Source of the DNA: Escherichia phage LPEK22
Length of the DNA: 64,000 bases
Reading direction: 5' to 3' (one strand)
Sequence record: OK283619.1
Numbering within the stretch: position 1 is the stretch's first letter; each line of letters opens with the position of its first letter. This document shows, piece after piece, positions 1 through 64,000 of this stretch. The notes below the pieces were generated by a model. The model was not told the DNA's origin. It saw only the letters and a list, made by a program, of their open reading frames with translations, and searched no databases. The translations under genes were made by a program, and so were the position numbers.

Positions 1-3000
1 CCTTCCCCTACGCGTATTGGGGATTCCGTTACTATTTGTGATGCTTATGGGAAATTTGCCACTTACCCATTGACCGTGTCTCCTTCTGGAAATAATTTGT
101 ATGGCTCCACTGAAGACATGGCTATAACAACTGATAACGTATCAGCAACGTTCACTTGGTCTGGACCTGAACAAGGTTGGGTTATCACATCCGGCGTCGG
201 TCTTGGCCAAGGCCGTGTCTACAGTCGTGAAATCTTTACACAAATTTTGGCGTCTGAAACAAGTGCTGTCACTCTCAATACTCCACCAACAATCGTGGAC
301 GTGTATGCTGACGGAAAACGTCTTGCGGAATCCAAATATTCACTAGATGGGAATGTAATCACTTTCAGTCCTTCTTTGCCAGCCAACACAGAACTTCAGG
401 TGATTGAATATACTCCGATTCAATTGGGTAATGGCGGTGGTTCTGGTTCTTCTACGATTACCTGGGTCTATAATGGGGGTTCAGCGATTGGCGGTGAAAC
501 CGAAATCACGTTAGACATCGTTGTTGATGATGTTCCGGCCATTGATATAAACGGAAGTCGCCAGTATAAAAATCTGGGGTTCACATTCGATCCATTAACC
601 AGTAAAATCACTCTTGCGCAAGAACTGGATGCAGAGGATGAAGTTGTTGTAATTATCAATGGAACGCCAAACATCTATAATCAAATTGATTATACTTTGC
701 GGGAAGTGGCTCGTGTAACCAATGTTAAAGATACAGAGGTCGTTTATTTTAGTGTTGGTGCTGTGTTAAGCGGGTATAAAGTTATCTACGATAAAATAAC
801 ACAGAGATCATATTTTATTCCAGAGTTACCGACTGGAACCACGGCAGTCAGCCTTAGTTCTTCGGCTGTGCTTGTACATTCTGCTGGTAGTGTTGATCTG
901 GGCGCATTAGCTGTATCTCGTGAAGAATATGTTACCTTGGCTGGGACATTTGATTCTGGTGCTGTCATCAATACTAAAAATGAATTACTCACCCATACTG
1001 ATGGAAAGTATCGTTGGGATGGTACACTTCCTAAAACTGTAGCTGCTGGCTCAACACCTGCAACAACTGGAGGCGTTGGTTCGGGAGCGTGGTTGAGTGT
1101 TGGTGATGCCACTGCCCGCCAGTGGGTAGCTAATAATTATATCAATAGTAAATTCGAGAAGTTTGGGTCTTTCTTGCAAGGTTCAGTTTTAACCACCAAC
1201 GAGCAAGCTCTTGTTGATTCAAGTGGTCTTTTCTGGGTTAAATATGGTGCTATACAAAGTGGTGGTTATACAGTAGCGCCGGGAACTGTTCCAGACTATC
1301 CCGATTTTTACTGTGTTGGATATTTAACAGATTATGATTGGCAGTCTGTTACAAACTGGGGTGCTGATAACAACTATTCTATCGCAGATAAGATCGGTGT
1401 AGACGCGGTCGATGCTATAAACCTCGCAGGTTATCATGCGGAGAAACGTGCGGAACTATTCGGATCCCAGCAAGTTGTCATGGTTCCTGCTGGCACTTAT
1501 CTGTTGGATAAAACGACTCTTGTGGAAGGCACGGCGCATGGTCTGACTATTTATCGTAATCAGGAAGTTATGATTTTTCTTCGCAACAACGTTACTTTCA
1601 TCGGCGATGGCGACGCAACGTTACTGTATGTTGCCGATGGTGTTGTTGAGCGCAATAAGGAAAACGGGGGCACTAAAGGCTTTGTAGTTTTCGGTGATGG
1701 TATTCGTGAAATTCAGAACGCATATGTCCACGATATGCTAATTGATGAAAATGGTGACAATAACCTTGTCCCGCCATTGAACTGGTCTGGAGCACAAGCT
1801 CATTGTCCAGCAGTAGCTTGTTACGAAGGTAGTAATGGTGTGACTGTTTCTGGAGTTAACGTCAAGAATGCTCCTGGTGCAAACGTAATGGTATTCCAGG
1901 AAGCTCAGGCAGCGTTCAACAGCTACAATACGCGTGTAGAGAATTGCAACTTCTATCGCGTTGCTGACGCTGTGACTGGAAACAGTAACCTAATAGACCA
2001 CTCATCAATAAGAATTCATTCCGATGGCTACGTTATAAATAACGTTAAATGTATCCAGCCAACCATGTCAGACATGTGTACGGTATTTGAGTGTCATGGT
2101 AATGGGATCGTTGATGGATGCATCACCAAAAAAGCTCGCTACCCATTCCTGAAGGCTAACGACGGTGCTACATCGACATCTATAGTCACCTTCACAAATA
2201 ACGTCTGTGAGGACGCAGGTAGTGCTTTGGTTCTGGATACCGTACCTAACGTTACAACTGTTGCCAGATTTATTGGTAATACTGTAACGCTACGATCAGA
2301 AAAGCAAGTTATCGGGTATCCTAATACTGCGGCATTCACAACACAGCAGCCGTCTGTTTTGTCATCTGACCCAACCACTATTAATGCAATTATTTACTCT
2401 GCAAATAATAACATATTGCAAAAAAACAGAGCCGCAGATTGGACAACTGAACAAAAAGCTGCAAACGTTGCTTATGACCTGGACTATTTCAAAGAAGTTG
2501 TTAGTGAAAATAACACTTTCTCAGGTTTTTGGGGGTGTGTTCGCTTGGGTAAACAAAAAACAGGTGCTACTTTCAACAGCAATGACTCTTTTGTCTCTTG
2601 CGGGACCAACGGTTCACCTCAATTATCAGACAACACAGCCATAAGGTTTACCAATAAATTTGCCAACGATTATCTTGTTCACCTTGATGAAATGCATATT
2701 AAATGGAATATGACAAAATGTCAGTTTGGTGGTGTCCTGGGTTTATTGCAACAAGCAGCAGGAGTGACTGTTGGTGTTGTGCAATTCACTGCTGATATTA
2801 AAACAGATAGATGGATGCATCCAGCGCTTGGGATAGCTCCACTATCCGTACAGGATTACTACTTCAACATTGATGTATACAGTGATGTGAATACCAGTGA
2901 ACCTTTATACGGATACGCTGGTATTCATGGGCAAATTAATGTTGACTCGCCAACTCAACCATATGTTAAACAATTTTACAAATACAAACCAAACACCCAG

Positions 3001-3168
3001 AATGGATGGTGGTTTAAAGGCATTTTAGCAACTGACACAACTTCTGTTCCTGACAGGCCTTTTGGTAATGCGTCTGGTGACAGATATGATGTTATTGCTG
3101 GGGCATCAAATATTTTCGGGTATCGACATAATGGTACAACATGGGATGCAATGAAATTTACATCATAG
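1..3168 (+). CDS. Tailspike protein, 5'-partial (reading frame open to window start; track start at 70 is a TTG). Long N-terminal extension, then the shared anchor module, then a C-terminal domain.
   Basis: Frame has no stop from nt 1. Residues about 236-370 (VKDTEVVYFSVG...YRWDGTLPK...GAWLSVGDA) are about 70 percent identical to the N-termini of the ORFs at 3272 and 8300. Beta-helix or depolymerase fold of the C-terminal part is assumed, not shown. Confidence 0.75.
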   Translation, partial: PSPTRIGDSVTICDAYGKFATYPLTVSPSGNNLYGSTEDMAITTDNVSATFTWSGPEQGWVITSGVGLGQGRVYSREIFTQILASETSAVTLNTPPTIVDVYADGKRLAESKYSLDGNVITFSPSLPANTELQVIEYTPIQLGNGGGSGSSTITWVYNGGSAIGGETEITLDIVVDDVPAIDINGSRQYKNLGFTFDPLTSKITLAQELDAEDEVVVIINGTPNIYNQIDYTLREVARVTNVKDTEVVYFSVGAVLSGYKVIYDKITQRSYFIPELPTGTTAVSLSSSAVLVHSAGSVDLGALAVSREEYVTLAGTFDSGAVINTKNELLTHTDGKYRWDGTLPKTVAAGSTPATTGGVGSGAWLSVGDATARQWVANNYINSKFEKFGSFLQGSVLTTNEQALVDSSGLFWVKYGAIQSGGYTVAPGTVPDYPDFYCVGYLTDYDWQSVTNWGADNNYSIADKIGVDAVDAINLAGYHAEKRAELFGSQQVVMVPAGTYLLDKTTLVEGTAHGLTIYRNQEVMIFLRNNVTFIGDGDATLLYVADGVVERNKENGGTKGFVVFGDGIREIQNAYVHDMLIDENGDNNLVPPLNWSGAQAHCPAVACYEGSNGVTVSGVNVKNAPGANVMVFQEAQAAFNSYNTRVENCNFYRVADAVTGNSNLIDHSSIRIHSDGYVINNVKCIQPTMSDMCTVFECHGNGIVDGCITKKARYPFLKANDGATSTSIVTFTNNVCEDAGSALVLDTVPNVTTVARFIGNTVTLRSEKQVIGYPNTAAFTTQQPSVLSSDPTTINAIIYSANNNILQKNRAADWTTEQKAANVAYDLDYFKEVVSENNTFSGFWGCVRLGKQKTGATFNSNDSFVSCGTNGSPQLSDNTAIRFTNKFANDYLVHLDEMHIKWNMTKCQFGGVLGLLQQAAGVTVGVVQFTADIKTDRWMHPALGIAPLSVQDYYFNIDVYSDVNTSEPLYGYAGIHGQINVDSPTQPYVKQFYKYKPNTQNGWWFKGILATDTTSVPDRPFGNASGDRYDVIAGASNIFGYRHNGTTWDAMKFTS

Positions 3169-3170
3169 TA

Positions 3171-3271: not shown

Positions 3272-5368
3272 ATGATTTCTCAATTCAATCAACCACGCGG
3301 CTCCACTTCCATAGAAGTTAACAAACAATCTATCGCTCGAAATTTCGGTGTCAAAGAAGACGAAGTCATTTATTTCACTGTCGGTATTGATCTCAGCGGA
3401 TTTAAAGTAATTTATGATGAGTCTACCCAACGGGCTTATTCTCTTCCTTCAGGTATTGTTTCAGGAACGACTGCGATAAGTCTGAACGAACAAGCCATCC
3501 TTACTCATTCTTCTGGCTCTGTTGATCTCGGGGAATTAGCAGTAAGCCGCGAAGAATATGTGACTTTACCTGGTTCTTTTAATTTCGGCCATACTATTAA
3601 TGTGAAAAATGAACTTCTTGTTCACGATGATGAAAAATATCGATGGGATGGTGCATTACCTAAAGTTGTTCCTGCTGGTTCAACTCCAGCATCAACTGGT
3701 GGCGTTGGTTTAGGTGCTTGGGTTAGTGTTGGTGATGCTGCATTTAGGCAGGAAGCTAATAAGAAATTCAAATATTCAGTAAAGTTATCTGATTATTCTA
3801 CATTACAGGATGCAGCGACAGCAGCCGTAGATGGATTGCTTATTGATGTTGACTACACTTTTACTGCAGATGAGAATGTAGATTTTAGCGGTAAAGTTTT
3901 AATCATTGAATGCAAAGGAAAATTCATTGGCGATGGTATGTTGGTTTGGAATGGTTTGGGTGCGGGCTCAGTAATTAAGAAACCGCACATGCATACTAAA
4001 ACTACGCCGTATACTGTTTACCGATTCGATGCAAACGGTAATTGGGTTACAGACCCAACACAAGTTCTGGCATCTGTTCAGCAGCGTTTGGATGTTGGAT
4101 ATAAGCCAAATATTAACGATTTAGATATTTGGGACGACCTTCCTGATAATGTAAAAAATCAGGTTGCTGGTGCTACTTTGCGAATAATGAGCGGCGATAA
4201 TATCATCGTAGAGAACCCAGAAGCTACATTTGGTGGTTATCTATTTACTTTATGTAATAGGATTCTTGTTAAGAATCCACGCAATTTTATTGCTTTGGAA
4301 TCGGGCATTACATTTGAGAACCATCATACAACTGCATGGGGTACTGGCAACTGGGTTGTTGGGGGTGAGATAAAATATGGCTCTGGTTCCGCTGTACTGT
4401 TCATTCGCAATGATGGTGGTACAGACCATGATGGTGGAGTAAGGGATTTAATCTCATACCGTGTTGGAGAATCAGGTATTAAAACCTATCAGAACGAAAT
4501 TGGAGGTCGTTCAGCCAGGAACTACCGTTTAGTGTTCGACAATATAACTACAATCCAGTGTTACTATGATGGTATTGATGTTAATGCTGACACAGGGTCG
4601 CCAACTGAACGTGTGGATGACTACTCACTCGCAGAGTATCCATGGTTCCACCTACCTACTCAACATATCATCCGTAATATTATTACTCGTGATTGTATGG
4701 GGATTGGTGCTTGGTGGGATGGTCAGAAAAATATTATTGATAATGTTGTTACTTATGAGGCCCATAAGGAAGGCGTCTTCGATAGGGGTACTAACAATGA
4801 TATTACTAACATTACTGTAGTAGGTGCGAATAAGGATTTAACTAACCTAAATCAGCTTACCTGTGAGGGAGGTAGTAGACTTCGTGGTATTAACATCCAT
4901 GCATATACTACACAAGGTTACGCTATATACGCTCCGTCTTCAGAAGTAAGTAATGTTTCCTGTGCTGGTTCCGGTACTAAGAAATTACTATGTACCTATA
5001 TAAGCGATATTCAGGGAGGTAATATCAATGTTCAGCATAGTGCCAACCAAATGACACTTGCAATGCAACCTGCTATGGGTGGTACTACAAACCCATCTTT
5101 GCTTATGACGGCAGATTGCCAGGTTGCTACACCAGGGGGTGAGGCAAGTATTGTCAAGCTTTCGGCAATTCAGGAGGGTGTACGTGTAGGTGAGTTTCAG
5201 CTTAACCGCTTAGGCTTTAAGCATATGAGTATACCTGCTGCCCCTTTACAATTACCAGAGAGCGCTCTGGAACATAATTCATCTATAGGATTCTTCTTCG
5301 GAAGTGACGGAGCATTGAGGTTGCTTGCTAAAAAACCAGATGGAAGTTATGTAACATACACACTTTAA
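3272..5368 (+). CDS. Tailspike protein (698 aa) with N-terminal shared anchor module
   Basis: ATG start. N-terminal 150 aa (VKEDEVIYFTVG...YRWDGALPKVVPAGSTPASTGGVGLGAWVSVGDA) matches the module in the other tailspikes. Preceded by terminator and late-promoter-like motif. Confidence 0.8.
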   Translation: MISQFNQPRGSTSIEVNKQSIARNFGVKEDEVIYFTVGIDLSGFKVIYDESTQRAYSLPSGIVSGTTAISLNEQAILTHSSGSVDLGELAVSREEYVTLPGSFNFGHTINVKNELLVHDDEKYRWDGALPKVVPAGSTPASTGGVGLGAWVSVGDAAFRQEANKKFKYSVKLSDYSTLQDAATAAVDGLLIDVDYTFTADENVDFSGKVLIIECKGKFIGDGMLVWNGLGAGSVIKKPHMHTKTTPYTVYRFDANGNWVTDPTQVLASVQQRLDVGYKPNINDLDIWDDLPDNVKNQVAGATLRIMSGDNIIVENPEATFGGYLFTLCNRILVKNPRNFIALESGITFENHHTTAWGTGNWVVGGEIKYGSGSAVLFIRNDGGTDHDGGVRDLISYRVGESGIKTYQNEIGGRSARNYRLVFDNITTIQCYYDGIDVNADTGSPTERVDDYSLAEYPWFHLPTQHIIRNIITRDCMGIGAWWDGQKNIIDNVVTYEAHKEGVFDRGTNNDITNITVVGANKDLTNLNQLTCEGGSRLRGINIHAYTTQGYAIYAPSSEVSNVSCAGSGTKKLLCTYISDIQGGNINVQHSANQMTLAMQPAMGGTTNPSLLMTADCQVATPGGEASIVKLSAIQEGVRVGEFQLNRLGFKHMSIPAAPLQLPESALEHNSSIGFFFGSDGALRLLAKKPDGSYVTYTL

Positions 5369-5448: not shown

Positions 5449-5483
5449 CCCCATATTGGCAAATCCTTATGGGGTATTTTCAA

Positions 5484-8249
5484 ATGACCAGAAATGTAGA
5501 AGAATTATTCGGCGGCGTAATCACAGCTCCCCACCAGATTCCTTTCACGTATAAATCAAATGTCGGTGGAGAAACTTTCCTTTCTTTGCCGTTCCATCCC
5601 GTCACTGGTGTTATCACAATCAACGGTGGTATGCAAGTTCCGTTAGACAACTTTGAAATCGAAGGAAATACATTGAATCTCGGACGCGCATTGTCCAAAG
5701 GCGATGTTGTGTATTGCTTATTCGATAAAATTCTTTCGCCAGAAGATACAGCCAAAGGTATCCGCATATACAAATTTCAGGCCGTAGGAGGTGAAACCGA
5801 GTTCACTCCTGATTTCACATCTTATGGAGTCCAATCTCTTTATATCGGTGGCGAGTACAAAACCCCCGAAATTGAATATTCCTATGACAGTACGACAGGA
5901 AAAGTATCTTTGCAAACTGCACTGACTGCAGGCGTTTGGGTAGTCGCTGAAATGTCTGTTAAACAACCGAATATCAGTCCGGCGTTTGACCGAAGTATTC
6001 AAGAAATCGCCCGTTCTGCTAATGTAAAAGACTCTGAAGTCATCGTTAGTACGGACACCATATCTTTGTTGGATGGGAAGAAAGTTGTTTATGACATAGC
6101 GGCGCAAACCAGTTATGGTTTACCAACCATTCCTGATGGTTCTGTCATTTCTTCTGTATCTGCTGGGAAATTGAATTACAATCCAGGTGATGTGCAGGTT
6201 GATTTGTTGCCTTTAGAAGATTCATTTATTAATGTGATAAACACTCTGGGGCGAAATGATGGTGCCAAGTATATTGGAGAATGCCATTCTGTTGCTGATC
6301 TCAGGAATACTGAACCCACTATGGATGGACAACGCATTATTCTTAAGCAACACACTGCGGGTACTCTTCTTGGTGGAGGGGTATTCCGTGCGTTAATTGA
6401 TGGTACAGGAAAGACTGATAATAACGGTACTGTGATCAAAACTGTTGGCGGCGCAGCATGGTTACGTGTTAATGCTGATAGAGTTAACCCATTCATGTTT
6501 GGTGCTTTGGGTGGTTCTAATGATGATACTATTCCAGTACAATCTTGTGTGGATAGTGGTAAGGCCACACAATTAACTGGTGTACATTACGTTAGCAATA
6601 TCCAGTTAAAATATAATACGTCGTCTATTTATGGGTCTGGATTACATTACTCAAGGTTGCATCAGTTGCCTTCTGCTACTGGGAATTGTATTACCATAAA
6701 AGATACATGCTCCCTTATTGTATTAGACGCCTTTGGGGTATATGGCACAGGTGCACAACAAGGCACGTCATTTACTGCGGGCACAACAGGTATCTATGTA
6801 GAAACTCCTTCAGGTCTCTCAGCCGATTATCCGTTCCACACTACCGCAGACCCAAGACGGGACTTGTGTATTTCTAAGGTCCATATAGCAGGTTTTGATG
6901 AATATGGGTTAAATATTGATAGTGGTAACTTTAGTGTTACTACAGATTCTCTTTTAGTCAACCACATCAATCAGGTGGGTGTCCGTTGTGCTACTACTGA
7001 TTGGACTTGGACAAATATCCAGGTTAATACCTGCGGTAAACAATGTCTAGTTCTTGATGGTTGTGGTAATGGTCGTATTATTGGCGGTAAATTCATTTGG
7101 GCTAACTGGCAACCTTATGGTACAGTAGGACAGTTCCCAGGCATTACTATTAATAACAGCCAGAATATGGTTATTAATGGTATTGAGGTACAAGATTGTG
7201 GCGGGAATGGTATTGAGATTAGCGAGTCATATTCAATTTCCATGAACGGATTGAACACCAATCGTAACGGCATCAATGCTAACAACACTTTCTACAACAT
7301 CGTATTTAACAAAAGTGATGCAGTTATCAACGGATTCGTAGGACTCAATTATGCCGCGAATAGTGGTTCAGGTGCTAACTCTAGTGCAGGCAATTTTCAG
7401 TTCCTGTCTAATGATTGTAGTGTCACCATTAATGGTGTGGTTGAGACTGGTTATATGGGCATTAACTTTATTGGTGATAACAATATTATCAACCCCACCA
7501 ATTCCGACCTGAGCATTAACGGATTGGTTAATTATTCCAAGACTGGTTTGCAAACCATGAACGAGACCCCTACATTTGATGGTGTTAGCACTACACCTGT
7601 TTATGTAAGTGTCCCATCTTCTGTAGGGCAAGTAAATGGTCTGAGACTATCACAAGCCAACAAAGATAAATTACTGTATTCAAGAACAGCAGGTCCAGAA
7701 GGTATTACCATGGCTGCTGTTGTAGTACCCACCATATCTGGAGCTGAAGTATTTAACTTCATGGCCATTGGTTCAGGGTTTAGTGATACATCCAACAGTC
7801 TTCATCTTCAATTAGTTATAGACGCTTCTGGAAAACAAACAATTGCTTTGCTATTGGGGGGCGATGGTACAACCCAAATTTTATCTGGGGATTTACCTAA
7901 CGACCTTAAACTACAAAGTGGTGTACCATATCATATAGCTATTGGTGCTAAACCTGGATATTTCTGGTGGAGTATTCTTAATATTCAGACGGGTAAGAGA
8001 ATCAGACGGTCATTCCGAGGCGCTTATTTAGCCGTACCATTTAATTCTATATTCGGATTAACTTCTTCATTAACATTCTTCTCGGATAGCAATGCTGGTG
8101 GGGATGCTTGTTCTGGGGTGGGCGCTAAAGTGTATGTTGGTATGTTCTCTTCCGAGAACGATTATGTAGCTTCACGATACTACAATCTGATTAATCCGGT
8201 AGACCCTACTAAGTTAATTAGTTACCGTATATTGGATTCTTCTATTTAA
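5484..8249 (+). CDS. Tailspike protein (about 921 aa) with N-terminal extension and a diverged anchor module
   Basis: ATG at 5484 preferred over the in-frame ATG at 5469, which lies inside the upstream hairpin. Residues about 180-250 (ANVKDSEVIV...VVYDIAAQTSYGLP) are a diverged copy of the module. C-terminal domain fold not verified. Confidence 0.7.
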   Translation: MTRNVEELFGGVITAPHQIPFTYKSNVGGETFLSLPFHPVTGVITINGGMQVPLDNFEIEGNTLNLGRALSKGDVVYCLFDKILSPEDTAKGIRIYKFQAVGGETEFTPDFTSYGVQSLYIGGEYKTPEIEYSYDSTTGKVSLQTALTAGVWVVAEMSVKQPNISPAFDRSIQEIARSANVKDSEVIVSTDTISLLDGKKVVYDIAAQTSYGLPTIPDGSVISSVSAGKLNYNPGDVQVDLLPLEDSFINVINTLGRNDGAKYIGECHSVADLRNTEPTMDGQRIILKQHTAGTLLGGGVFRALIDGTGKTDNNGTVIKTVGGAAWLRVNADRVNPFMFGALGGSNDDTIPVQSCVDSGKATQLTGVHYVSNIQLKYNTSSIYGSGLHYSRLHQLPSATGNCITIKDTCSLIVLDAFGVYGTGAQQGTSFTAGTTGIYVETPSGLSADYPFHTTADPRRDLCISKVHIAGFDEYGLNIDSGNFSVTTDSLLVNHINQVGVRCATTDWTWTNIQVNTCGKQCLVLDGCGNGRIIGGKFIWANWQPYGTVGQFPGITINNSQNMVINGIEVQDCGGNGIEISESYSISMNGLNTNRNGINANNTFYNIVFNKSDAVINGFVGLNYAANSGSGANSSAGNFQFLSNDCSVTINGVVETGYMGINFIGDNNIINPTNSDLSINGLVNYSKTGLQTMNETPTFDGVSTTPVYVSVPSSVGQVNGLRLSQANKDKLLYSRTAGPEGITMAAVVVPTISGAEVFNFMAIGSGFSDTSNSLHLQLVIDASGKQTIALLLGGDGTTQILSGDLPNDLKLQSGVPYHIAIGAKPGYFWWSILNIQTGKRIRRSFRGAYLAVPFNSIFGLTSSLTFFSDSNAGGDACSGVGAKVYVGMFSSENDYVASRYYNLINPVDPTKLISYRILDSSI

Positions 8250-51272: not shown

Positions 51273-51275
51273 GAT

Positions 51276-57506: not shown

Positions 57507-57589
57507 ACGCTTTATTCAATAGTATTTGTTAGGTAAGCTGTAGTCCTCTTGTAGTGAAACATCGTAAACAACTAACTGGAGTAATCCGA

Positions 57590-57868
57590 ATGAACCGTAC
57601 TGATTTTATCGCTCACATCGCTCAAACCCAGGGTATGACCAAAGGCGAAGCTGAGAAAATCGTTGCATCTTTTATCAATGGCGTGAAAACTGCAGTCGCG
57701 GCTGGCCAATCTGTCCAATTCGTAGGCTTCGGCGCGTTCGAAGTTAAACATCAGGAAGCGCGCACTGGCCGCAACCCGCTGAACGGACAACAGATCCAGA
57801 TCGAAGCGAAAAATGTAGTTAAATTCAAAGTCGGTGAAGGTCTGAAAGCTGCTGCCAACGGCCAGTAA
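57590..57868 (+). CDS. HU/IHF-family histone-like DNA-binding protein
   Basis: MNRTDFIAHIAQ...VQFVGFGAFEVKHQEARTGRNPLNGQQIQIEAKNV aligns along the length with bacterial HU (...[35 protein letters not shown]). ATG at 57590 with GGAG RBS. Confidence 0.85.
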   Translation: MNRTDFIAHIAQTQGMTKGEAEKIVASFINGVKTAVAAGQSVQFVGFGAFEVKHQEARTGRNPLNGQQIQIEAKNVVKFKVGEGLKAAANGQ

Positions 57869-57928
57869 TCACACCAGGCGTCGGCTCAGCGCATGTCTGC
57901 AGTGCAGCGGCGCAAGGCTAAAAGGAGA

Positions 57929-57956
57929 AGCCGAGGTTAATGCCTCGGCTTTTTCG
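57929..57956 (+). terminator. Rho-independent terminator after the HU-like gene
   Basis: agccgagg/cctcggct stem plus ttttt. Confidence 0.8.
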
Positions 57957-58003
57957 TTGTTGGGATTCGGGTAAACTATAACAGAATCCAAAGGAGGAAC
58001 AAC

Positions 58004-59725
58004 GTGACAGCATTTAATCAACACCGAAAGGCGATTGACGCCATAGGCCGTAAGGTTCCTGTGGAAGAAATACAACGCCTTACCAAAGATGAATTCCCAT
58101 ATGACAAAGCGAACCCAGGCCAGATGGAATGCATCGTCGAAGCCATAGATGCGCTTATCAACAAAAAGGTTAAACATGTCATCATTGAAGCTCCGACAGG
58201 TGTCGGTAAATCTTTGATTGGCACTACCATTCATAAAGTGATTCGCCATCTAGTTTTACAGGCTGATCCTTATGGGCAATTTCGCACTTCTATCAGCACC
58301 CCGACCAAAGGTCTGCAAGATCAGTATGCTGCTGAAAAGGCGGTGGCGATAGACATCCTAAAAGGCAAGAAGAACTATCGTTGCCACGTACATCCAGATG
58401 TGTATTACAATGCTGTCCAATGCCGTATAGCATGCCGTGACGGGCATTGTAGCAAACGCCGCTGTCCTTATGTACAGGCGCGTAATTTGTGGACGGATAT
58501 TTCATCATTGCGTTGTACTAATGCTGCCATGATGATCGAAATGTGTACAACCATCTGCATGAAGCCCGAAAACCGTTCCGATATGCTGATCCTTGACGAG
58601 TGCCATAAAATGCCCTCTACGCTCCTAGAGCACACGATCATGGAATACAATACAAAGGCCGTGGAGGGGCTGCGTTCTATCCCTGATGGCAAGGAGATCG
58701 TCTCTACCATTGGTGATATCGTAGAACGCACCAAGGACTATGTCCTGGGCAAGTTATATTCCTTGTCTGGTGAACTACATTCAATGTTTGAAGACCTCCA
58801 TCTCAAAGTAGAAAATTTGTTGGAAGTTCTTGAAGAATTGGTCGAAGATGATCGCTTGAGTGAAAGCCAAGTGATGAAACTCGCCGACATTATAGATGTC
58901 TTGCATAACTTGAGTGATTATTGCGGTATTATGTCTCAGACAAAGGCCAGCACCTTTATCGTACAGGAAAAGGGAGATGACTTTATTCGGTTTAAACCCG
59001 TTATGCCTTCTGATGTAAGTGAATTCGGGTTATTCCGAAAAGCTGATTATCACGTTCATATGTCAGCAACGATCTGTGGTATAGATTCGTATGCTCGTTC
59101 ATTGGGTATTCGACAGGGGGATTATCATTCCATTCAGATCGGCAACCCTATCCCGATTGAAAACAGAAAAGTCAACTATATGCCCATAGTGAAGATGACT
59201 AACAATATGGGTGACTATGAAATGAAAAGGTTGACGGAATATATTGATGAAATAATCGCGTTCCACCCAGGTCAGTCCGGTATTATCCATACAGTGAGTT
59301 ATGATCGCGCGTTGGCAATACAAAAATTCAGCAAATATCAGAATTTTATCCATGTTCCGCGCACCCGAAAGGCGTTGATGGATATTATGGAAAATGCTTT
59401 TAGAACAAAGTCCCCATGCGTCATTGCCAGTCCTGCCATGGAAGAAGGTTATGATTTCAAAGGGGATTACAGCCGTTTCCAAATACTGATCAAAGTCCCT
59501 TATGATTATCTGGGCGATCCACTGATAGCACATATCAATTCAGTGGATCCGTCGGCATATTTCCGCAATGCAGTACTGCGCATTGTTCAAATGTGTGGGC
59601 GTTCGGTCAGGGGTGTTGATGACTGGGCTGCGACATACATCATTGATTCATCTTTTGAATCTCTTATGATGCGCAACCCAGAATTCTTCCCAACCTGGTT
59701 CACCGATGCAGTGTTTGAGGTTTAA
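58004..59725 (+). CDS. DinG/Rad3 (XPD)-family Fe-S helicase, GTG start
   Basis: Walker A EAPTGVGKS, DEAH-type box ILDECH, four-Cys cluster between them (C..C....C....C). Strong RBS aaggagg 6 nt before the GTG. Confidence 0.8.
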   Translation: MTAFNQHRKAIDAIGRKVPVEEIQRLTKDEFPYDKANPGQMECIVEAIDALINKKVKHVIIEAPTGVGKSLIGTTIHKVIRHLVLQADPYGQFRTSISTPTKGLQDQYAAEKAVAIDILKGKKNYRCHVHPDVYYNAVQCRIACRDGHCSKRRCPYVQARNLWTDISSLRCTNAAMMIEMCTTICMKPENRSDMLILDECHKMPSTLLEHTIMEYNTKAVEGLRSIPDGKEIVSTIGDIVERTKDYVLGKLYSLSGELHSMFEDLHLKVENLLEVLEELVEDDRLSESQVMKLADIIDVLHNLSDYCGIMSQTKASTFIVQEKGDDFIRFKPVMPSDVSEFGLFRKADYHVHMSATICGIDSYARSLGIRQGDYHSIQIGNPIPIENRKVNYMPIVKMTNNMGDYEMKRLTEYIDEIIAFHPGQSGIIHTVSYDRALAIQKFSKYQNFIHVPRTRKALMDIMENAFRTKSPCVIASPAMEEGYDFKGDYSRFQILIKVPYDYLGDPLIAHINSVDPSAYFRNAVLRIVQMCGRSVRGVDDWAATYIIDSSFESLMMRNPEFFPTWFTDAVFEV

Positions 59726-60489
59726 TAACCCGCAATAAACGATAAATGGCACTTGATATTTGGTTCAAGTGTCGTTATCGTGATAATCATATTGTCCACA
59801 TCTTGGCTGAAAGATATATTTGCGATCGGTTTGGTTTGAACATGATTATACAGGCTATAAATCAGATCTTCACCACGATAACCGATTTTGCCATCAGTGT
59901 CCTGCCAATGACCGAGGGTAGACTCTCGAGCGTGTACTCGGAATTCGACCATATGAAACAATGCTTTTGGGATTGTCTTCAGTATGCTGGTCCCAACAAC
60001 CGGAATATCAATAGAAGAGTCGTTGGAGTTTCCTTCATAAACAGATTCCCAACCAAATATTGGATCACCTCCTGCCACAGGAGTTCTTTTCCAGTATTGG
60101 AATTCTGGGTTGCCCGAAGCGTTCTTTTGTAGGAGGATTACTTCACCGCCTTCAAAATTGGAAGTGTCTATATCGTCCCTTGCTAATAAATCTGCCGGAG
60201 AACCAATAAATTTCCAAGTTTCGCGATCTAAAATAGACTTATAATAATCGGTGAATACGTTGCTGTCGTTAGCTGCATTGATTGCGTCTTTAAGACCTTC
60301 ACCTGTGACCATCTCATTAAGTTTTAGCCACATGTTTTTGACAGCTGACGCAGCTGCGACTTGACCTTCAGTCCCACCCGCCGTGTAGTCATAAATGATG
60401 TCCAGCTTTTGTATGGAATCATTTATAGACAAGAGCAAACGCTCAATTTCTGGGGCGGTCAGACTGAAACGATATGCGCGTTCTGACAT
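59722..60489 (-). CDS. Hypothetical protein (255 aa), minus strand
   Basis: ATG on minus strand with RBS gaggaa. Its stop overlaps the helicase stop tail-to-tail (ttaa). Confidence 0.5.
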   Translation of the reverse strand: MSERAYRFSLTAPEIERLLLSINDSIQKLDIIYDYTAGGTEGQVAAASAVKNMWLKLNEMVTGEGLKDAINAANDSNVFTDYYKSILDRETWKFIGSPADLLARDDIDTSNFEGGEVILLQKNASGNPEFQYWKRTPVAGGDPIFGWESVYEGNSNDSSIDIPVVGTSILKTIPKALFHMVEFRVHARESTLGHWQDTDGKIGYRGEDLIYSLYNHVQTKPIANISFSQDVDNMIITITTLEPNIKCHLSFIAGY

Positions 60490-60531
60490 GATTCGTTCCT
60501 CATCGATAAAACCAGTTTGGGATACTTATAC

Positions 60532-61059
60532 ATGATTGAAATATACACTGACGGGGCATCATCCCCTCAGAAGACACGAGCCGCTGGTTGGGCATTTGCC
60601 ATCAGTCCAATCACTGGAGAGCAATGGAAAGTGTTTTATGGGTATTTACCCCCGCCGTCAACGAACAATATAGCTGAGTTACTCGGGGTTATAAACGCAA
60701 TGAAGATCCTATGGAAATTCTCTAATTGCGGTGAACGCTGCATTCCCCCAGCCCGCATCATATCCGACAGCCAATATGTTATCAATAGCGTTTTGGAGTG
60801 GCGTCGTAAATGGGAATATGAAGGAATGCCGCCTAAGAACACAGAACTTCTGCTCGAGTTGTTCGATTATTATGACAAAGTTTGTTCAATTTGTGAACTT
60901 GAATTAAAATGGGTGAAAGGTCATGCAGGAACGATGGGCAACGAAATTGCGGATCAGTGGAGCGTTAGAGCCAAAGAAGATAGTTCAATGGTTCTTGAAA
61001 ATAACCGTTTCTCGGTCAAGAAAGTCGTTGGTTCTTTCAATGAATTCATTGGTATTTGA
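60532..61059 (+). CDS. Ribonuclease HI (RNase H1-type)
   Basis: IYTDGAS...AGWAF...NNIAELLGVINAM...SDSQYVIN...WVKGHAG..GNE.AD carries the catalytic-residue pattern of RNase HI. ATG at 60532 (track start is TTG). Confidence 0.85.
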   Translation: MIEIYTDGASSPQKTRAAGWAFAISPITGEQWKVFYGYLPPPSTNNIAELLGVINAMKILWKFSNCGERCIPPARIISDSQYVINSVLEWRRKWEYEGMPPKNTELLLELFDYYDKVCSICELELKWVKGHAGTMGNEIADQWSVRAKEDSSMVLENNRFSVKKVVGSFNEFIGI

Positions 61060-61070
61060 GGATTATCACG

Positions 61071-61862
61071 ATGGGTATGAATTTTGTAGACAGGGGTGAT
61101 AACGTCACCAAATATTTCACAGACGAAGATAATGACCGTGTTGTTGGAATATTGAGAGATTGGATTCCGGCTCGCAAAAAGGCTTTGGCCGAAGGAACAC
61201 CCCTACCAAGAATCCCCAATTATGTGGCCATGAATGTTCAGATGATTATTAAGAACATGAGTATGCGCTACAACTATCGTGATTATCCATACCGCGAAGA
61301 CATGGTCAGTGAGGCCGTTGTCAACATCCTTCGTTACCTCCATACATTTGACGTCAGTCATATCGGCAAGAAAGGAAAAATCAATTTCTTCTCTTGGGTA
61401 ACGATGTGCGCCGATCGTTCATTCGCCAAGAAACTCACCAGTGAAGAAGAACACAATTATATCAAGTTGCGTTCATTTGAAGAAGCAGGTGGTTTCGCTG
61501 CATTATCAGATGACCCAGACTTCCAGCAACAGACATTCGTAGACAGCACTGGTATAACAATGGACTTCCGTGAGCGTATCGGAAATTTTGAAACTAAGAA
61601 AGAAGCACAGCGCGAAAAGGAACGCCAAAAGCAAATCGCCATCAAAGAAGAGGAAAAGAATAAGAAAATTCCTCGCGGTATACTTCAATGTCTCACAAAG
61701 AGTGAAAATACCATTACCGCCGACGCCGAAGATAATTCAGACTATGACTTCGGCTCTACTCAATTCAATCTGGAAGACGAAATATGTTCTATGGAACCAG
61801 ATTGGGAAGAAGCAAAGAAACGAGCATTAGAACGGGAGCAACAAAATAATGGCGATTGCTAA
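61071..61862 (+). CDS. Late-transcription sigma factor, T4 gp55-like, with C-terminal extension
   Basis: QMIIKNMSMRYNYRDYPYREDMVSEAVVNILRYLHTFD and INFFSWVTMCADRSFAKKLTSEEE parallel T4 gp55 as recalled. 263 aa against about 185 aa in T4; extra Lys/Glu-rich C-terminal region. Confidence 0.75.
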   Translation: MGMNFVDRGDNVTKYFTDEDNDRVVGILRDWIPARKKALAEGTPLPRIPNYVAMNVQMIIKNMSMRYNYRDYPYREDMVSEAVVNILRYLHTFDVSHIGKKGKINFFSWVTMCADRSFAKKLTSEEEHNYIKLRSFEEAGGFAALSDDPDFQQQTFVDSTGITMDFRERIGNFETKKEAQREKERQKQIAIKEEEKNKKIPRGILQCLTKSENTITADAEDNSDYDFGSTQFNLEDEICSMEPDWEEAKKRALEREQQNNGDC

Positions 61863-62964
61863 AATAGGCGATTTACATATCGGGAGCCGTAATGGTTCCC
61901 GTTACGTTCGAGAATTCATAAAGAATTATCTCATCAATTATTTTATTCCAGAATTGGTTGACGCCGATATTAAAGAAGTGTGGCAATTTGGTGATACGTT
62001 TGATGTTCGCAAATTCATGTATGGTCGCGATAAAGATTGGTTGAAAGATGAATTGACGCCAGCGCTGCGCAAAGCAGGTATTAAATGGAATGGCATCGTC
62101 GGCAACCATGATATCACGTTAGAAGAGTCCAATCGCATTAACTGGCCTTCTTATCTTAATGAATTGGCACCGGATGTTTATCATTATTACAGCGAACCAA
62201 CTGAAGTAATGATTGAAGGTGTCAAGACCCTCCTACTGCCGTGGATTAACAAAGAGAACTATGATGCGTCCATTAAAGCGATACAAGATACAGACGCCAA
62301 GTACTGTTTTGCGCATCTGGAGTTGGCAGGGTTCAAAATGTATCAGTCCTCTATATGTGATAAAGGTCAGATCGACGTGGCGCTCCTTTCGAAATTCGAG
62401 CGCGTGGATACCGGACATTTCCATACCCGTTCGATGGAAGGTAACATTCAGTATATTGGGACTCCTTATCACCTTACCTGGGAAGACCACAAAGACGGGA
62501 CGAACCGAGGATTCTATGTAGACGACATGAATGGCGGGGAATTGTTTATCCCCAACAACGAACAACAAACGTTGTTCCGGTTCGTGGAATACGACTACAC
62601 GCAAATGTCTTCTGACACCGAAGGTAATTGGATCGACCCCGATTGGTTAAACAATGTTTTGGGTATTGAAGGGCAAATCGTTAAGGTGATTGTACAGAAC
62701 CGTGACAATGCCAAGCATTATGAAAAGTTCTGTGACGCATTGAAGCGCTGTAAATGCATCGATTACAACTTCATCGATCGGACGATTACTGTTGCTTCCG
62801 AGAAGGTAGAAGTCACTGAAGAGATGGTGGCGACTGATGCTGTGGAAGTCCTGAAGAAAGATATCCGCGCCGCCAATAATATCCAGCGCCCTGAAAATGT
62901 TTGCAAATTAGCAGAACAATTCTATAATGCTGCCCAACAACGCCTGAACACATTGGATGCATAA
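61849..62964 (+). CDS. Recombination nuclease subunit, T4 gp47-like (Mre11/SbcD family)
   Basis: Phosphoesterase motifs GDLHIG, GDTFD, VGNHD, GHFH and YIGTP, colinear with T4 gp47. Confidence 0.9.
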   Translation: MAIAKIGDLHIGSRNGSRYVREFIKNYLINYFIPELVDADIKEVWQFGDTFDVRKFMYGRDKDWLKDELTPALRKAGIKWNGIVGNHDITLEESNRINWPSYLNELAPDVYHYYSEPTEVMIEGVKTLLLPWINKENYDASIKAIQDTDAKYCFAHLELAGFKMYQSSICDKGQIDVALLSKFERVDTGHFHTRSMEGNIQYIGTPYHLTWEDHKDGTNRGFYVDDMNGGELFIPNNEQQTLFRFVEYDYTQMSSDTEGNWIDPDWLNNVLGIEGQIVKVIVQNRDNAKHYEKFCDALKRCKCIDYNFIDRTITVASEKVEVTEEMVATDAVEVLKKDIRAANNIQRPENVCKLAEQFYNAAQQRLNTLDA

Positions 62965-62966
62965 TA

Positions 62967-64000
62967 ATGAACAATGTAGACCTATTATCAAAATTTGGTT
63001 CGCTGTTGAAAGAAGCGGACACTCCTGTTTCTGTTGAAGCACCATTTGAAATCCGTGGGGAAATTACCCACAAACTGACTTTCCATCGCGGTCGCGCTAA
63101 AAACTTTCGTTCTATCGGTAATGAATTCATGGAAATTGATTACCAACGCAACCCTGCAACCTTGGTTACATCCGATGACAATGGCGCTGGTAAATCCACC
63201 ATGCTTGTCTGGCTGCTGTTCTTCGTTCTGTATAATGACACATATAGCAAGAAAGAAAAGAAAGCCGGATTAGTCAATTCCCAAAACAAAAAGGAATGCG
63301 TGGGTGAAGTTGAGTTCTCCACTCGAGGAAGTGAATGGAAAGTCCGTCGTGGTATCAAACCTGATTTCGTAGAAGTCTATCAGATGGTAGACGGTGAGTG
63401 GAAGCAGGTCGTGAATGATGCGGCCAAAGCCGACATGAACAAATATATTGTGAACCTGATTGGCGTAGACCAGAAGATGTTTGAGAACTCCCTGGTTCTG
63501 GGCAAAGAGAAGTTCATCCCATTCACGGAAATGTACACTGCCGACCGTCGCGCTATGGTAGAGACAATCTGGGATTTGGGGTTCTTCAGTCTGATGAATG
63601 AAGATGTAAAAGCATCTATCAAGACAGTAACGAATGAACTCACGACGGTCACCAATGATTACGCCTTTCATGATGTAAATTTAAAAGGCCAGCAATCGCA
63701 GTTGGAACAGATCAATAATTCCAATGCGATGATCCAGCAACAATCTGCTGATATCCTTGTCCAAGAGAAGGAACGTCTGAATAGCCTGAATTCAGATATC
63801 AGCGCAGTGCAGGAACAACTGACAGAGTCCCGTGCTCAAGACTCTAAATTGGAATCAGAATTATCAGAAGTCCGTAATCGCCTGAATGCCGAAATGAAAG
63901 GGGATATCGATGCCATCAATGAAGAGTATGCGGCCAAAATCCAAGCAGTTCAGGATGAAGCCGATACCAAGGCTGAAGATTATGAACGCATAGAAGTATC
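62967..64000 (+). CDS. Recombination ATPase subunit, T4 gp46-like (Rad50/SbcC family), 3'-partial at window end
   Basis: Walker A DNGAGKSTML and NSQNKKE parallel T4 gp46, then coiled-coil. Frame open to nt 64000. Confidence 0.85.
   Translation, partial: MNNVDLLSKFGSLLKEADTPVSVEAPFEIRGEITHKLTFHRGRAKNFRSIGNEFMEIDYQRNPATLVTSDDNGAGKSTMLVWLLFFVLYNDTYSKKEKKAGLVNSQNKKECVGEVEFSTRGSEWKVRRGIKPDFVEVYQMVDGEWKQVVNDAAKADMNKYIVNLIGVDQKMFENSLVLGKEKFIPFTEMYTADRRAMVETIWDLGFFSLMNEDVKASIKTVTNELTTVTNDYAFHDVNLKGQQSQLEQINNSNAMIQQQSADILVQEKERLNSLNSDISAVQEQLTESRAQDSKLESELSEVRNRLNAEMKGDIDAINEEYAAKIQAVQDEADTKAEDYERIEV

What the first reader, a model, noticed from the sequence alone, without database searches (positions are those of the whole stretch)
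1..64000. Lineage inference: T4-like core plus Vi1-like tailspike array
Gene order 13-14-15-16-17-18-19-20-(67-68)-21-22-23 and 45-44-62-regA mirror T4. The denV, gp55, gp47 and gp46 homologues match T4 proteins at the motif level, and the four-tailspike array is characteristic of Ackermannviridae. From memory of that family, thymine is replaced by modified bases, but the enzymes for this are not identifiable in this window by eye. The two large unassigned ORFs at 42618 and 44324 are the only candidates here.
Basis: inference. Interest (0 to 1): 0.45.

Follow-up and report, generated by a model that had tools for sequence, protein, structure and literature searches.

The report
Known Kuttervirus (ViI-like) phage segment
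The window is a 64-kb stretch of an already well-known kind of Salmonella/E. coli phage (genus Kuttervirus, family Ackermannviridae), so the lineage guess is right but ordinary. Of the two ORFs proposed as DNA-modification enzymes, one belongs to a family experimentally associated with the thymidine-hypermodification pathway, though its own reaction is unknown; the other shows no link to it.

Summary
The lineage call is correct. The window is 97.8-99% identical at DNA level to sequenced Kuttervirus phages (SFP10, S117, BPS6, BSP101, CBA120). It is collinear with SFP10 over 95.7% of its length.

- **T4-like genes.** T4 homologues 13-14-15-16-17-18-19-20-68-21-22-23, 3, uvsY, uvsW, 45-44-62-regA, denV and 55-47-46 are present in the stated order. 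gp67 could not be verified, and gp55 is supported only through a profile.
- **Tailspikes.** The four ORFs are TSP4 (cut by the window start), TSP3, TSP2 and TSP1. TSP1 and TSP2 are near-identical to the solved CBA120 proteins. TSP3 carries a P22/9NA-type endorhamnosidase head.
- **Thymidine hypermodification.** The family's modification is published: about 40% of T is replaced by 5-NeOmdU. Of the five ViI genes used in the reconstitution, only the gp160 homologue lies in this window (42618-43823; Pfam PF18723; predicted DNA-glycosylase-like fold resembling the solved 5-PmdU glycinyltransferase).
- **Second candidate.** ORF 44324-46342 is DUF8224, a family spread through many unrelated phages. 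Its link to modification is not supported.
A MazG-like pyrophosphatase lies next door.

Novelty: already known. The one open point is what the gp160 family actually does.

The parts
1..3168 (+). Tailspike TSP4-type. The 5' end is cut by the window start (the SFP10 homologue SFP_0163 starts about 336 nt upstream). It has an N-terminal branching/anchor region and XD domains like CBA120 TSP4, with a different C-terminal receptor-binding part.
   Evidence: 7rej/7rfo (TSP4 N-terminal domain) 4.8e-143 for residues 1-226; 5w6h 2.7e-82 for residues 232-374 only. Pfam Tail_spike_N 4e-24; annotation of SFP_0163.
3272..5368 (+). Tailspike TSP3-type: a CBA120-TSP3-like N-terminus joined to a P22/9NA-type endorhamnosidase head (Salmonella O-antigen).
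   Evidence: 3riq E=0 (1071 bits) for residues 156-698; 6nw9 1.3e-93 for residues 1-166. Pfam PhageP22-tail 6e-106.
5469..8249 (+). Tailspike TSP2, near-identical to full-length CBA120 TSP2.
   Evidence: 6w4q E=0, 2070 bits, residues 6-926 against chain 1-921.
8300..10612 (+). Tailspike TSP1, near-identical to CBA120 TSP1.
   Evidence: 4oj5 E=0, 1638 bits, residues 1-769.
10706..15544 (+). Large virion protein (1612 aa; 'VriC-like'; DUF4815).
   Evidence: Pfam DUF4815 5.7e-61; annotations in relatives.
16157..29721 (+). T4-like morphogenesis block:
- gp13: 16157-16909
- gp14: 17212-17853
- gp15: 17856-18554
- gp16 (TerS): 18557-19237
- gp17 (TerL): 19218-21428
- gp18: 21481-23376
- GIY-YIG homing endonuclease: 23435-23893
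- gp19: 23924-24457
- gp20: 24525-26207
- small ORF at the gp67 position: 26249-26419
- gp68-like: 26428-26745
- gp21: 26753-27421
- gp22: 27468-28307
- gp23: 28399-29721
   Evidence: phmmer against T4 proteins; Pfam; PHROGs; annotation.
19545..20021 (+). Mini-intein-like 159-aa insert inside the Walker A loop of the large terminase (…ARQSGK|C…SHN|TTVVA…).
   Evidence: the alignment to T4 gp17 breaks exactly at GK|T; sequence. PDB inteins, 6qaz 7.9e-4 and 6rpp 2.9e-3. Pfam Intein_splicing 27 bits, below the cut-off.
35034..38300 (+). gp3 tail completion (35034-35531), UvsY (35570-36025), PD-(D/E)XK exonuclease (36025-36771), UvsW helicase (36798-38300).
   Evidence: (CBA120 annotation).
38996..41668 (+). 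Replication-accessory block in T4 order:
- gp45 sliding clamp: 38996-39679
- gp44: 39758-40747
- gp62: 40752-41174
- RegA: 41204-41668
   Evidence: (Translat_reg 4e-35).
41685..42548 (+). MazG-like nucleotide pyrophosphatase (name from PHROG and annotation only).
   Evidence: phrog_2144 6.9e-136 and phrog_671 6.5e-19; annotated 'MazG-like pyrophosphatase' in ViI and SFP10. No Pfam, NCBIfam or PDB sequence hit.
42618..43823 (+). Homologue of ViI gp160 (Vi01_130c): Pfam PF18723, called 'aGPT-Pplase clade 1' in the literature. A glycosylase-fold protein of the thymidine-hypermodification gene set.
44324..46342 (+). DUF8224 protein (672 aa), function unknown. Predicted multi-domain, with a TerD-like beta-sandwich. 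Split into two ORFs in the ViI record.
48986..51593 (+). VWA-domain protein (48986-51238) and acyl-carrier-protein-like ORF (51276-51593).
   Evidence: VWA 4e-7, PP-binding 3.8e-7; phrog_4154 acyl carrier protein.
51976..52479 (+). DenV (endonuclease V, pyrimidine-dimer glycosylase).
   Evidence: Pyr_excise 5e-13. T4 denV 6.3e-20.
57554..64000 (+). Replication, transcription and recombination genes:
- HU-like DNA-binding protein: 57554-57868
- helicase: 58004-59725
- unknown ORF on the minus strand: 59722-60489
- RNase H: 60517-61059
- gp55 late sigma: 61056-61862
- gp47: 61849-62964
- gp46: 62967-64000, cut by the window end
   Evidence: (SFP10 annotation).

Best explanation
**What the window is.** It is a contiguous 64-kb segment of a Kuttervirus genome (Ackermannviridae, Cvivirinae), read as the reverse complement of the SFP10 and ViI reference orientation. 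The phage is a close relative of Salmonella/E. coli O157 phages SFP10, S117, BSP101 and CBA120.

**What it encodes:**
1. The branched four-tailspike host-recognition module, in the order TSP4-TSP3-TSP2-TSP1, followed by the large VriC-like protein.
2. A T4-type neck, terminase, tail and head morphogenesis block.
3. A T4-type replication and recombination set: gp3, uvsY, uvsW, 45-44-62-regA, denV, RNase H and 55-47-46.

**Thymidine hypermodification.** The family's published pathway is: dUMP hydroxymethylase, then 5-hmdU in DNA, then 5-hmdU DNA kinase, then serine:DNA transferase gp247, then PLP decarboxylase gp226, giving 5-NeOmdU. This window holds only the homologue of ViI gp160.

- *Shown here:* the gp160 homologue is a member of PF18723. 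Its predicted fold is like a helix-hairpin-helix DNA glycosylase and resembles the solved 5-PmdU glycinyltransferase. It has no kinase P-loop. In more distant Ackermannviridae-type phages its gene lies directly after the transferase and kinase genes.
- *Inferred:* it flips out and acts on phosphorylated 5-hmdU in DNA as a second, accessory group-transfer-type enzyme. Its actual reaction is unknown.

**ORF 44324.** It is a DUF8224 protein, conserved in many unrelated phages beside replication genes. It is not specifically tied to hypermodification.
For: - **DNA identity and collinearity:**
- **Taxonomy lines of the matching records:**
- **T4 homology and order:**
- **Tailspikes:**
- **Hypermodification gene mapping:** the ViI gene names and roles come from PMC5889632 and PMC8989533. 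They were located in the ViI record through the 'orf00NNN' notes. tblastn of the ViI proteins into the window hits only gp160, the MazG-like Vi01_131c and the two DUF8224 halves.
- **DUF8224:**
Against: - Nothing argues against the lineage assignment.
- The window is not identical to any single listed record. Four short accessory segments (30502-30896, 43746-44231, 46818-47046, 47395-49005) do not align to SFP10, and the best-matching record differs between thirds of the window. It is a new isolate or mosaic, not a known strain.
- For the gp160 homologue, the purified-enzyme pathway in PMC8989533 lists and uses only a kinase, gp247 and gp226; gp160 is absent from that protein table. It may therefore be dispensable or non-catalytic.
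- The profile-profile comparison with the gp247 family is not significant (E 0.11).
- No chemistry can be read from sequence. Whether this phage's DNA is modified is inferred from relatives only.
Confidence: 0.96

Rival explanations
1. The window is a true T4-family (Straboviridae) phage that has acquired a ViI-like tailspike cassette.
For: Many T4 homologues lie in T4 order.
Against: - T4 similarity exists only at the protein level and is distant: for example 32% identity for TerL and 18% for gp55.
- The whole 64 kb, including the non-T4 genes, is 94-99% identical in DNA to Kuttervirus genomes.
- regA is followed by the MazG-like gene and the gp160 homologue, not by gene 43 as in T4.
Confidence: 0.01
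2. ORF 44324-46342 (DUF8224) is an enzyme of the thymidine-hypermodification pathway.
For: - It lies 0.5 kb downstream of the gp160 homologue.
- It is large and highly conserved, with 59% mean column identity among relatives of about 50% identity or more.
- It has invariant Cys, His, Asp and Glu residues that could form an active site.
Against: - The family has more than 7,500 members, against 910 for gp160 and 59 for gp247 in the same kind of search.
- It occurs in Vequintavirinae, phiCbK-like, N4-like, cyanophage and Bacillus phage records.
- No hypermodification gene was seen next to it in the four loci inspected.
- In Aeromonas phage phiA8-29 it is about 42 kb from the gp160-like gene.
- It is not among the five ViI proteins sufficient for reconstitution.
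- It has no fold match to any nucleic-acid-modifying enzyme.
Confidence: 0.04
3. ORF 42618 is itself a 5-hmdU DNA kinase, as a literal reading of the Pfam name 'HMUDK_hel' might suggest.
For: The Pfam family name. In SP10 this domain is fused to the kinase (Table 3 of PMC5889632).
Against: - It has no Walker A / P-loop motif.
- The predicted fold is an HhH-type glycosylase, not a P-loop kinase.
- The SP10 kinase domain alone, with the C-terminal part deleted, still phosphorylates 5-hmdU DNA (PMC8989533).
- The ViI kinases are gp67 and gp243, which lie outside the window.
Confidence: 0.02
4. ORF 44324 is a DNA-directed RNA polymerase, as some database records name it.
For: It is annotated 'DNA-directed RNA polymerase' in Klebsiella phage BIS47, Raoultella phage Ro1, Salmonella phage pSC20 and Se-B.
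Against: - No Pfam or NCBIfam polymerase hit.
- PHROG 1735 is 'unknown function'.
- Pfam files the family as a DUF.
- The phage carries gp55 and, in ViI, gp33, the T4-type late-transcription factors. By analogy with T4 (general knowledge) these act on the host RNA polymerase.
Confidence: 0.03

Closest known systems
Salmonella phage SFP10 (NC_016073) and relatives S117, BPS6, BSP101, vB_SalM-ps4; Escherichia phage CBA120 (genus Kuttervirus)
   Same: - 97.8-99% DNA identity, with the same gene order throughout.
- The same TSP1 and TSP2 as CBA120, and the same TSP3 and TSP4 as SFP10.
   Different: - Four short accessory-ORF segments, about 2.7 kb in all, do not align to SFP10.
- No single listed record is the best match for all three thirds of the window.
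Salmonella phage ViI / Vi01 (NC_015296), type phage of the group and the model for 5-NeOmdU biosynthesis
   Same: Collinear genome segment at 80-93% DNA identity outside the tailspike heads. The gp160, MazG-like, regA-62-44-45 and 46-47-55 genes are in the same places.
   Different: - The tailspike receptor-binding parts differ (only N-terminal stretches align).
- DUF8224 is one intact ORF here but two ORFs (Vi01_129c and Vi01_128c) in the ViI record.
- The gp160 homologue is only 78% identical, below its neighbours.
Escherichia phage T4 (Straboviridae)
   Same: Homologues of gp3, 13-23, 45, 44, 62, RegA, DenV, UvsY, UvsW, 55, 47 and 46, with the local order 13→23, 45-44-62-regA and 55-47-46 preserved.
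   Different: - The homology is distant and protein-level only.
- This phage has tailspikes instead of long tail fibres.
- No gene 43 follows regA here; in ViI the DNA polymerase is annotated polA and lies elsewhere.
- The family modifies thymine, not cytosine.
- There is an intein-like insert in TerL.
Amino-acid:DNA transferases (aGPT-Pplase clade 2, PF18724): ViI gp247, M6 gp51, PaMx11 gp46/PUGT (PDB 8z2m)
   Same: - An invariant E-N-x-x-C-E-x-x-K motif resembles the Pplase2 E-T-x-x-C…K catalytic/metal motif (PMC13458397).
- The genes are adjacent in Aeromonas and Vibrio relatives.
   Different: - It is a different Pfam family (PF18723, not PF18724).
- Sequence similarity is not significant: BLASTP E 0.16 and hhalign E 0.11.
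- It is not used in the purified-enzyme 5-NeOmdU pathway.
- No substrate or product is known.

Membership tests
Genus Kuttervirus / family Ackermannviridae | High nucleotide identity and collinearity with recognised members. The ICTV genus criterion of roughly 70% or more over the genome is from general knowledge. | tested here: met
   97.8-99% identity over 99-100% of each third of the window to Kuttervirus records. 95.7% of the window aligns to SFP10. Only 64 kb of about 158 kb could be tested.
Genus Kuttervirus / family Ackermannviridae | Array of four tailspike proteins with shared N-terminal anchor/XD domains forming a branched complex. | tested here: met
   - Four consecutive ORFs were found.
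- Tail_spike_N is present in three of them.
- The PDB matches are to CBA120 TSP1, TSP2, TSP3 (N-terminus) and TSP4 (N-terminus).
Genus Kuttervirus / family Ackermannviridae | T4-like morphogenesis and replication core. | tested here: met
   (20 T4 proteins hit).
Genus Kuttervirus / family Ackermannviridae | Complete thymidine-hypermodification gene set: dUMP hydroxymethylase, two 5-HMUDK, Pplase2, PLP decarboxylase and gp160. | tested here: inconclusive
   Only the gp160 homologue is in the window. The others lie outside it in ViI coordinates and give no tblastn hit here. The rest of the source genome is not available.
Genus Kuttervirus / family Ackermannviridae | Virion DNA with about 40% of dT replaced by 5-NeOmdU. 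| not testable with these tools
   This is a chemical property, known for ViI and CBA120 from PMC5889632 and PMC11721090.
PF18723 (HMUDK_hel; 'aGPT-Pplase clade 1', ViI gp160 family), for ORF 42618-43823 | Match to the Pfam model above its gathering score. | tested here: met
   280.7 bits against a cut-off of 25, covering profile positions 5-278 of 281. 78% identity to ViI gp160.
PF18723 (HMUDK_hel; 'aGPT-Pplase clade 1', ViI gp160 family), for ORF 42618-43823 | Helix-hairpin-helix DNA-glycosylase-like fold. | tested here: met
   - The AF2 model has pLDDT 88.7 and pTM 0.85.
PF18723 (HMUDK_hel; 'aGPT-Pplase clade 1', ViI gp160 family), for ORF 42618-43823 | Co-occurrence or linkage with 5-HMUDK and dUMP hydroxymethylase genes. 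| tested here: met
   Linked in Aeromonas phage phiA8-29 and Vibrio phage D493. Co-resident in ViI.
PF18723 (HMUDK_hel; 'aGPT-Pplase clade 1', ViI gp160 family), for ORF 42618-43823 | Defined catalytic activity on 5-PmdU DNA. | not testable with these tools
   No activity has been assigned to the family in the papers read.
Amino-acid:DNA transferase (Pplase2, PF18724), considered for ORF 42618-43823 | Sequence membership in PF18724. | tested here: not met
   - No PF18724 hit at E <= 0.01.
- BLASTP to ViI gp247 gives E 0.16.
- hhalign of the two families gives E 0.11.
Amino-acid:DNA transferase (Pplase2, PF18724), considered for ORF 42618-43823 | Conserved catalytic Cys with a nearby Glu/Thr metal-binding pair (E-T-x-x-C). 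| tested here: inconclusive
   - E348, N349, C352, E353 and K356 are invariant in 45 homologues.
- The best hhalign local alignment places them on the gp247-family E282, T283, C287 and K291, but without statistical support.
DUF8224 (PF26675), for ORF 44324-46342 | Sequence membership in the family. | tested here: met
   All full-length homologues, from 97% down to 49% identity, carry precomputed PF26675, named DUF8224. The local Pfam copy returned no hit, so membership rests on the precomputed labels.
Thymidine-hypermodification pathway, considered for ORF 44324-46342 | Phyletic distribution or gene linkage matching the 5-HMUDK phages. | tested here: not met
   Found in 558 phage records spanning many unrelated groups. 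The neighbours are DNA polymerase and nucleotide-metabolism genes, not hypermodification genes.

The most novel reading that the evidence does not exclude
The gp160-family protein at 42618-43823 (PF18723) may be the missing second enzyme acting on phosphorylated 5-hmdU in newly replicated DNA. For example, it could convert the roughly 60% of 5-hmdU sites that do not receive serine into plain thymidine, or set the sequence pattern of modification.

[quoted passage not shown] No function is assigned to this paralogue in the papers I could read.

The hypothesis rests on four observations:
- Its predicted fold is like that of the 5-PmdU glycinyltransferase.
- It has an invariant E-N-x-x-C-E motif.
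- Its gene lies directly after the transferase gene in Aeromonas and Vibrio relatives.
- The Pplase2 exocyclic-methylene intermediate yields dT with borohydride (PMC8989533).

It remains only a hypothesis.
Probability: 0.12. Interest if true: 0.6.

Novelty: already known. Interest (0 to 1): 0.12.

Why it matters
As a lineage call it matters little. This is one more member of a heavily sequenced phage genus, with hundreds of matching records. Its tailspikes, T4-like core and DNA hypermodification have all been described.

Practical value:
- It places the window securely, so that other findings in it can be read against the CBA120, ViI and SFP10 literature.
- It corrects which ORF belongs to the hypermodification gene set, and shows that the proven enzymes gave no hit in this window.
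- It flags two well-conserved proteins whose functions are still open. One is the gp160/PF18723 paralogue, which bears on the unsolved 5-hmdU-to-thymidine step. The other is DUF8224, which has more than 7,500 homologues and sits by replication genes in many phage groups.

Tried and rejected
- **Sequence searches of the two ORFs against solved structures.** Nothing useful with single sequences or with family profiles.
- **NCBIfam on the region 41.6-51.2 kb.** Only weak VWA hits.
- **Fold search of the DUF8224 model.**
  - The viral structure library gave only uncharacterised phage proteins.
  - The AlphaFold-database library was not available.
- **gp160 family against gp247 family.** BLASTP and profile-profile comparison were not significant. 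I therefore do not file the ORF as an amino-acid:DNA transferase.
- **MazG-like ORF.** No Pfam, NCBIfam or PDB sequence support. Its name rests on the PHROG and on annotation. Its adjacency to gp160 is not kept in Aeromonas or Vibrio relatives, so a role as dTTPase is only a guess.
- **tRNA and Rfam scans of the window.** Nothing found.
- **'DNA-directed RNA polymerase' label on DUF8224 in some records.** Rejected for lack of any supporting similarity.
- **Literature search for later work on the 5-hmdU-to-T step or on Pplase1.** Nothing found in the held library.

Full report
**Identity of the window**

Megablast of the three thirds of the window against 50,697 phage records gives full-length matches.
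- Window 1-25000 is 98.9-99.0% identical to Salmonella phages BPS6, S117, STP-4 and SFP10.
- Window 25001-50000 is 99.0% identical to vB_SalM-ps4, 98.6% to BSP101 and 97.8% to Escherichia phage CBA120.
- Window 50001-64000 is 98.9-99.0% identical to BSP101 and SFP10.

The matching records are classified Ackermannviridae; Cvivirinae; Kuttervirus. I stitched the corresponding SFP10 segments together and aligned the window to them. 61,279 of 64,000 bases align at 94-98.9% identity. Four short accessory segments do not align: 30502-30896, 43746-44231, 46818-47046 and 47395-49005.

Against the type phage ViI the window is collinear at 80-93% identity, except in the tailspike heads. The window is the reverse complement of the reference orientation. 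The lineage inference is therefore correct, and the object is a new isolate of a very well-sampled genus.

**T4-like core**

I took the T4 proteins from the T4 record and searched them with phmmer against the window's ORFs. In window order, hits were obtained for these T4 proteins:
- gp13, gp14, gp15, gp16, gp17, gp18, gp19, gp20
- gp68 (weak, E 0.003), gp21, gp22, gp23 (also hit by gp24), gp3
- gp45, gp44, gp62, RegA, DenV, gp47, gp46

Pfam independently gives the following:
- T4_neck-protein, T4-gp15_tss, DNA_Packaging, Terminase_6N
- sheath domains, Phage_T4_gp19, Portal_T4, Peptidase_S77, T4_CASP, Gp23
- UvsY, UvsW_N, gp45-slide_C (weak), Gp44_lid, Phage_clamp_A
- Translat_reg, Pyr_excise, RNase_H

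- gp67 is not verified. A 56-aa ORF occupies its position, but it is similar only to a PHROG of unknown function.
- gp55 has no direct phmmer hit to T4 gp55. It rests on PHROG 234, 'late sigma transcription factor', at 1.7e-53, and on a weak pairwise alignment (18% identity, E 0.005).

The local orders 13→23, 45-44-62-regA and 55→47→46 are the same as in T4. After regA, however, T4 has gene 43, whereas this phage has a MazG-like gene and the gp160 homologue.

**Tailspikes**

Four consecutive ORFs occupy 1-10612.
- The first runs off the window start. It matches the solved N-terminal domain of CBA120 TSP4 (7rej, 4.8e-143) and the XD region of 5w6h, but not its receptor-binding part.
- The second has a TSP3-type N-terminus (6nw9 residues 1-166). 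Its head is essentially that of the phage 9NA / P22-type endorhamnosidase (3riq, E=0; Pfam PhageP22-tail 6e-106).
- The third matches full-length CBA120 TSP2 (6w4q, 2070 bits).
- The fourth matches CBA120 TSP1 (4oj5, 1638 bits).

The order along the + strand is TSP4-TSP3-TSP2-TSP1, followed by the 1612-aa DUF4815 / VriC-like protein. This is the branched receptor-binding module described for the family (abstract of PMC11721090).

**DNA modification: which enzymes are here**

The literature establishes four points.
- ViI replaces about 40% of thymidine by 5-(2-aminoethoxy)methyl-dU.
- Five ViI proteins in mixed lysates suffice for the reconstitution: gp67, gp160, gp226, gp243 and gp247.
- The purified-enzyme route is 5-hmdU DNA kinase (gp67 or gp243), then serine:DNA transferase gp247, then PLP decarboxylase gp226.
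- These 'gp' numbers correspond to the 'orf00NNN' notes of the ViI record. That places gp67 at Vi01_061c (next to thyA), gp160 at Vi01_130c, gp226 at Vi01_182, gp243 at Vi01_196 and gp247 at Vi01_199.

I ran tblastn of these proteins into the window, together with thyA, dNMP kinase, dUTPase, dCMP deaminase and the other MazG-like protein. The only hits are gp160 (42618-43820, 78% identity), the MazG-like Vi01_131c (41685-42545, 85%) and the two ORFs Vi01_129c and Vi01_128c, which together equal the 672-aa ORF. The proven pathway enzymes gave no hit in the window.

**The gp160 homologue (42618-43823)**

- *Start codon.* ATG 42618 follows an AGAGGA ribosome-binding site, itself preceded by a hairpin plus T-run. 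The mechanical TTG start at 42597 lies in that T-run.
- *Family.* Pfam gives PF18723, 'HMUDK_hel', at 1.7e-83. The protein has no P-loop.
- *Possible catalytic motif.* Invariant residues include E348, N349, C352, E353 and K356. The gp247 family has invariant E282, T283, C287 and K291. The 2026 study of Pplase2 identifies E-T-x-x-C as metal ligands plus catalytic cysteine. The best local profile-profile alignment puts the two motifs on each other, but it is not significant (E 0.11). I treat this as a lead only.
- *Genomic context.* In Aeromonas phage phiA8-29 (Ackermannviridae, Tedavirus) and Vibrio phage D493, the order is: DNA polymerase … gp243-like kinase – gp247-like transferase – gp160-like – … – gp67-like kinase – thyA-like – dNMP kinase – dUTPase-like. 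I verified this by tblastn to ViI. The family thus sits inside the hypermodification cluster where that cluster is compact. In Kuttervirus the genes are scattered.
- *Best reading.* It is a DNA-binding, base-flipping accessory enzyme acting on activated 5-hmdU. Against a core role, the purified-enzyme pathway does not include it.

**The 672-aa ORF (44324-46342)**

- *Family size and distribution.* It has no hit in the local Pfam or NCBIfam copies. It has more than 7,500 homologues, all labelled PF26675 = DUF8224. In the phage collection it occurs in 558 records. Besides Ackermannviridae, these include Vequintavirinae (BIS47, CR3), phiCbK-like Caulobacter phages, an N4-like Stenotrophomonas phage, Alteromonas and Aeromonas phages, a cyanophage and Bacillus phages.
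- *Neighbours elsewhere.* They are DNA polymerase, a primase-like ATPase, dCTP deaminase, thymidylate synthase and small early genes. Hypermodification genes are not among them.
- *Database labels.* The 'DNA-directed RNA polymerase' label in a few records has no support.
- *Conclusion.* It is a conserved phage protein of unknown function associated with replication-gene neighbourhoods. It is not supported as a thymine-modification enzyme.

**Other points**

A dTTPase/dUTPase has been shown for an Acinetobacter hypermodifying phage. I could not support the assignment here beyond the PHROG name.
- TerL carries a 159-aa insert exactly in the Walker A loop, bounded by Cys…His-Asn|Thr, with weak matches to solved inteins. 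A terminase intein has already been reported for the Ackermannviridae phage Magnus.
- No tRNA or Rfam family is present.

**Verdict**

The object is already known.

The only residual question with some depth is the function of the gp160/PF18723 paralogue. The 2018 paper notes that the conversion of 5-hmdU to thymidine in these phages is unexplained. This paralogue is a reasonable but untested candidate for that step.

Noticed in passing
window 19545-20021 (inside TerL, 19218-21428): A 159-aa insert sits exactly in the Walker A loop of the large terminase relative to T4 gp17. It is bounded by Cys110 and His-Asn268 followed by Thr, and has weak matches to solved mini-inteins (6qaz 7.9e-4). This looks like a mini-intein with no endonuclease domain. 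An intein in an Ackermannviridae terminase is already reported for phage Magnus.
   Followed up: partly
window 23435-23893: A GIY-YIG homing-endonuclease ORF is inserted between the tail sheath (gp18) and tail tube (gp19) genes. It is also present in SFP10 and ViI.
   Followed up: partly
window 44324-46342; ViI 85300-87319; Dickeya phage fragments in BFVD and PHROGs: - DUF8224 is one intact 672-aa ORF here.
- It is annotated as two ORFs in ViI (491 + 183 aa).
- It appears as fragments of 93, 173 and about 472 aa in Dickeya phages and in separate PHROGs.
- This could mean frameshifts, sequencing errors or mobile-element interruptions of a highly conserved gene.
- Some records label it 'DNA-directed RNA polymerase' without support.
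   Followed up: partly
window 41685-42548: A MazG-like pyrophosphatase ORF lies directly upstream of the gp160 homologue, separated from it by a terminator-like hairpin (about 42573-42600). It is a possible nucleotide-pool (dTTP/dUTP) enzyme. Only the PHROG and annotation support the name, and the adjacency is not conserved in Aeromonas or Vibrio relatives.
   Followed up: partly
window 48986-51593: A 750-aa protein with an N-terminal von Willebrand A domain is followed by an acyl-carrier-protein-like ORF (PP-binding, phrog_4154). This is an odd pair for a lytic phage. TerD-like (in DUF8224) and VWA domains also co-occur in bacterial Ter systems, by general knowledge.
   Followed up: no
window 42618-43823 against other Kuttervirus records: The gp160 homologue shows a bimodal identity distribution among phage records: 42 at >=99%, few at 80-95%, and 197 at 60-80%. 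It is only 78% identical to ViI gp160, while the flanking genes are 85-95% identical. This suggests two allelic lineages exchanged by recombination.
   Followed up: no
window 30502-30896, 43746-44231, 46818-47046, 47395-49005: Four short segments do not align to SFP10. They hold small accessory ORFs, for example a Zn-ribbon ORF at 43820-44227 and a Phage_gp49_66-domain ORF at 47673-48398. The best-matching record also differs between thirds of the window, which indicates mosaicism.
   Followed up: partly
L012 (Aeromonas phage phiA8-29) 10346-11035; ViI Vi01_061c and Vi01_196: The 5-hmdU DNA kinases are mis-annotated in reference records. The gp67-type is labelled 'terminase small subunit' and the gp243-type 'guanylate kinase'. 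The thyA-like dUMP hydroxymethylase is labelled 'thymidylate synthase'.
   Followed up: partly
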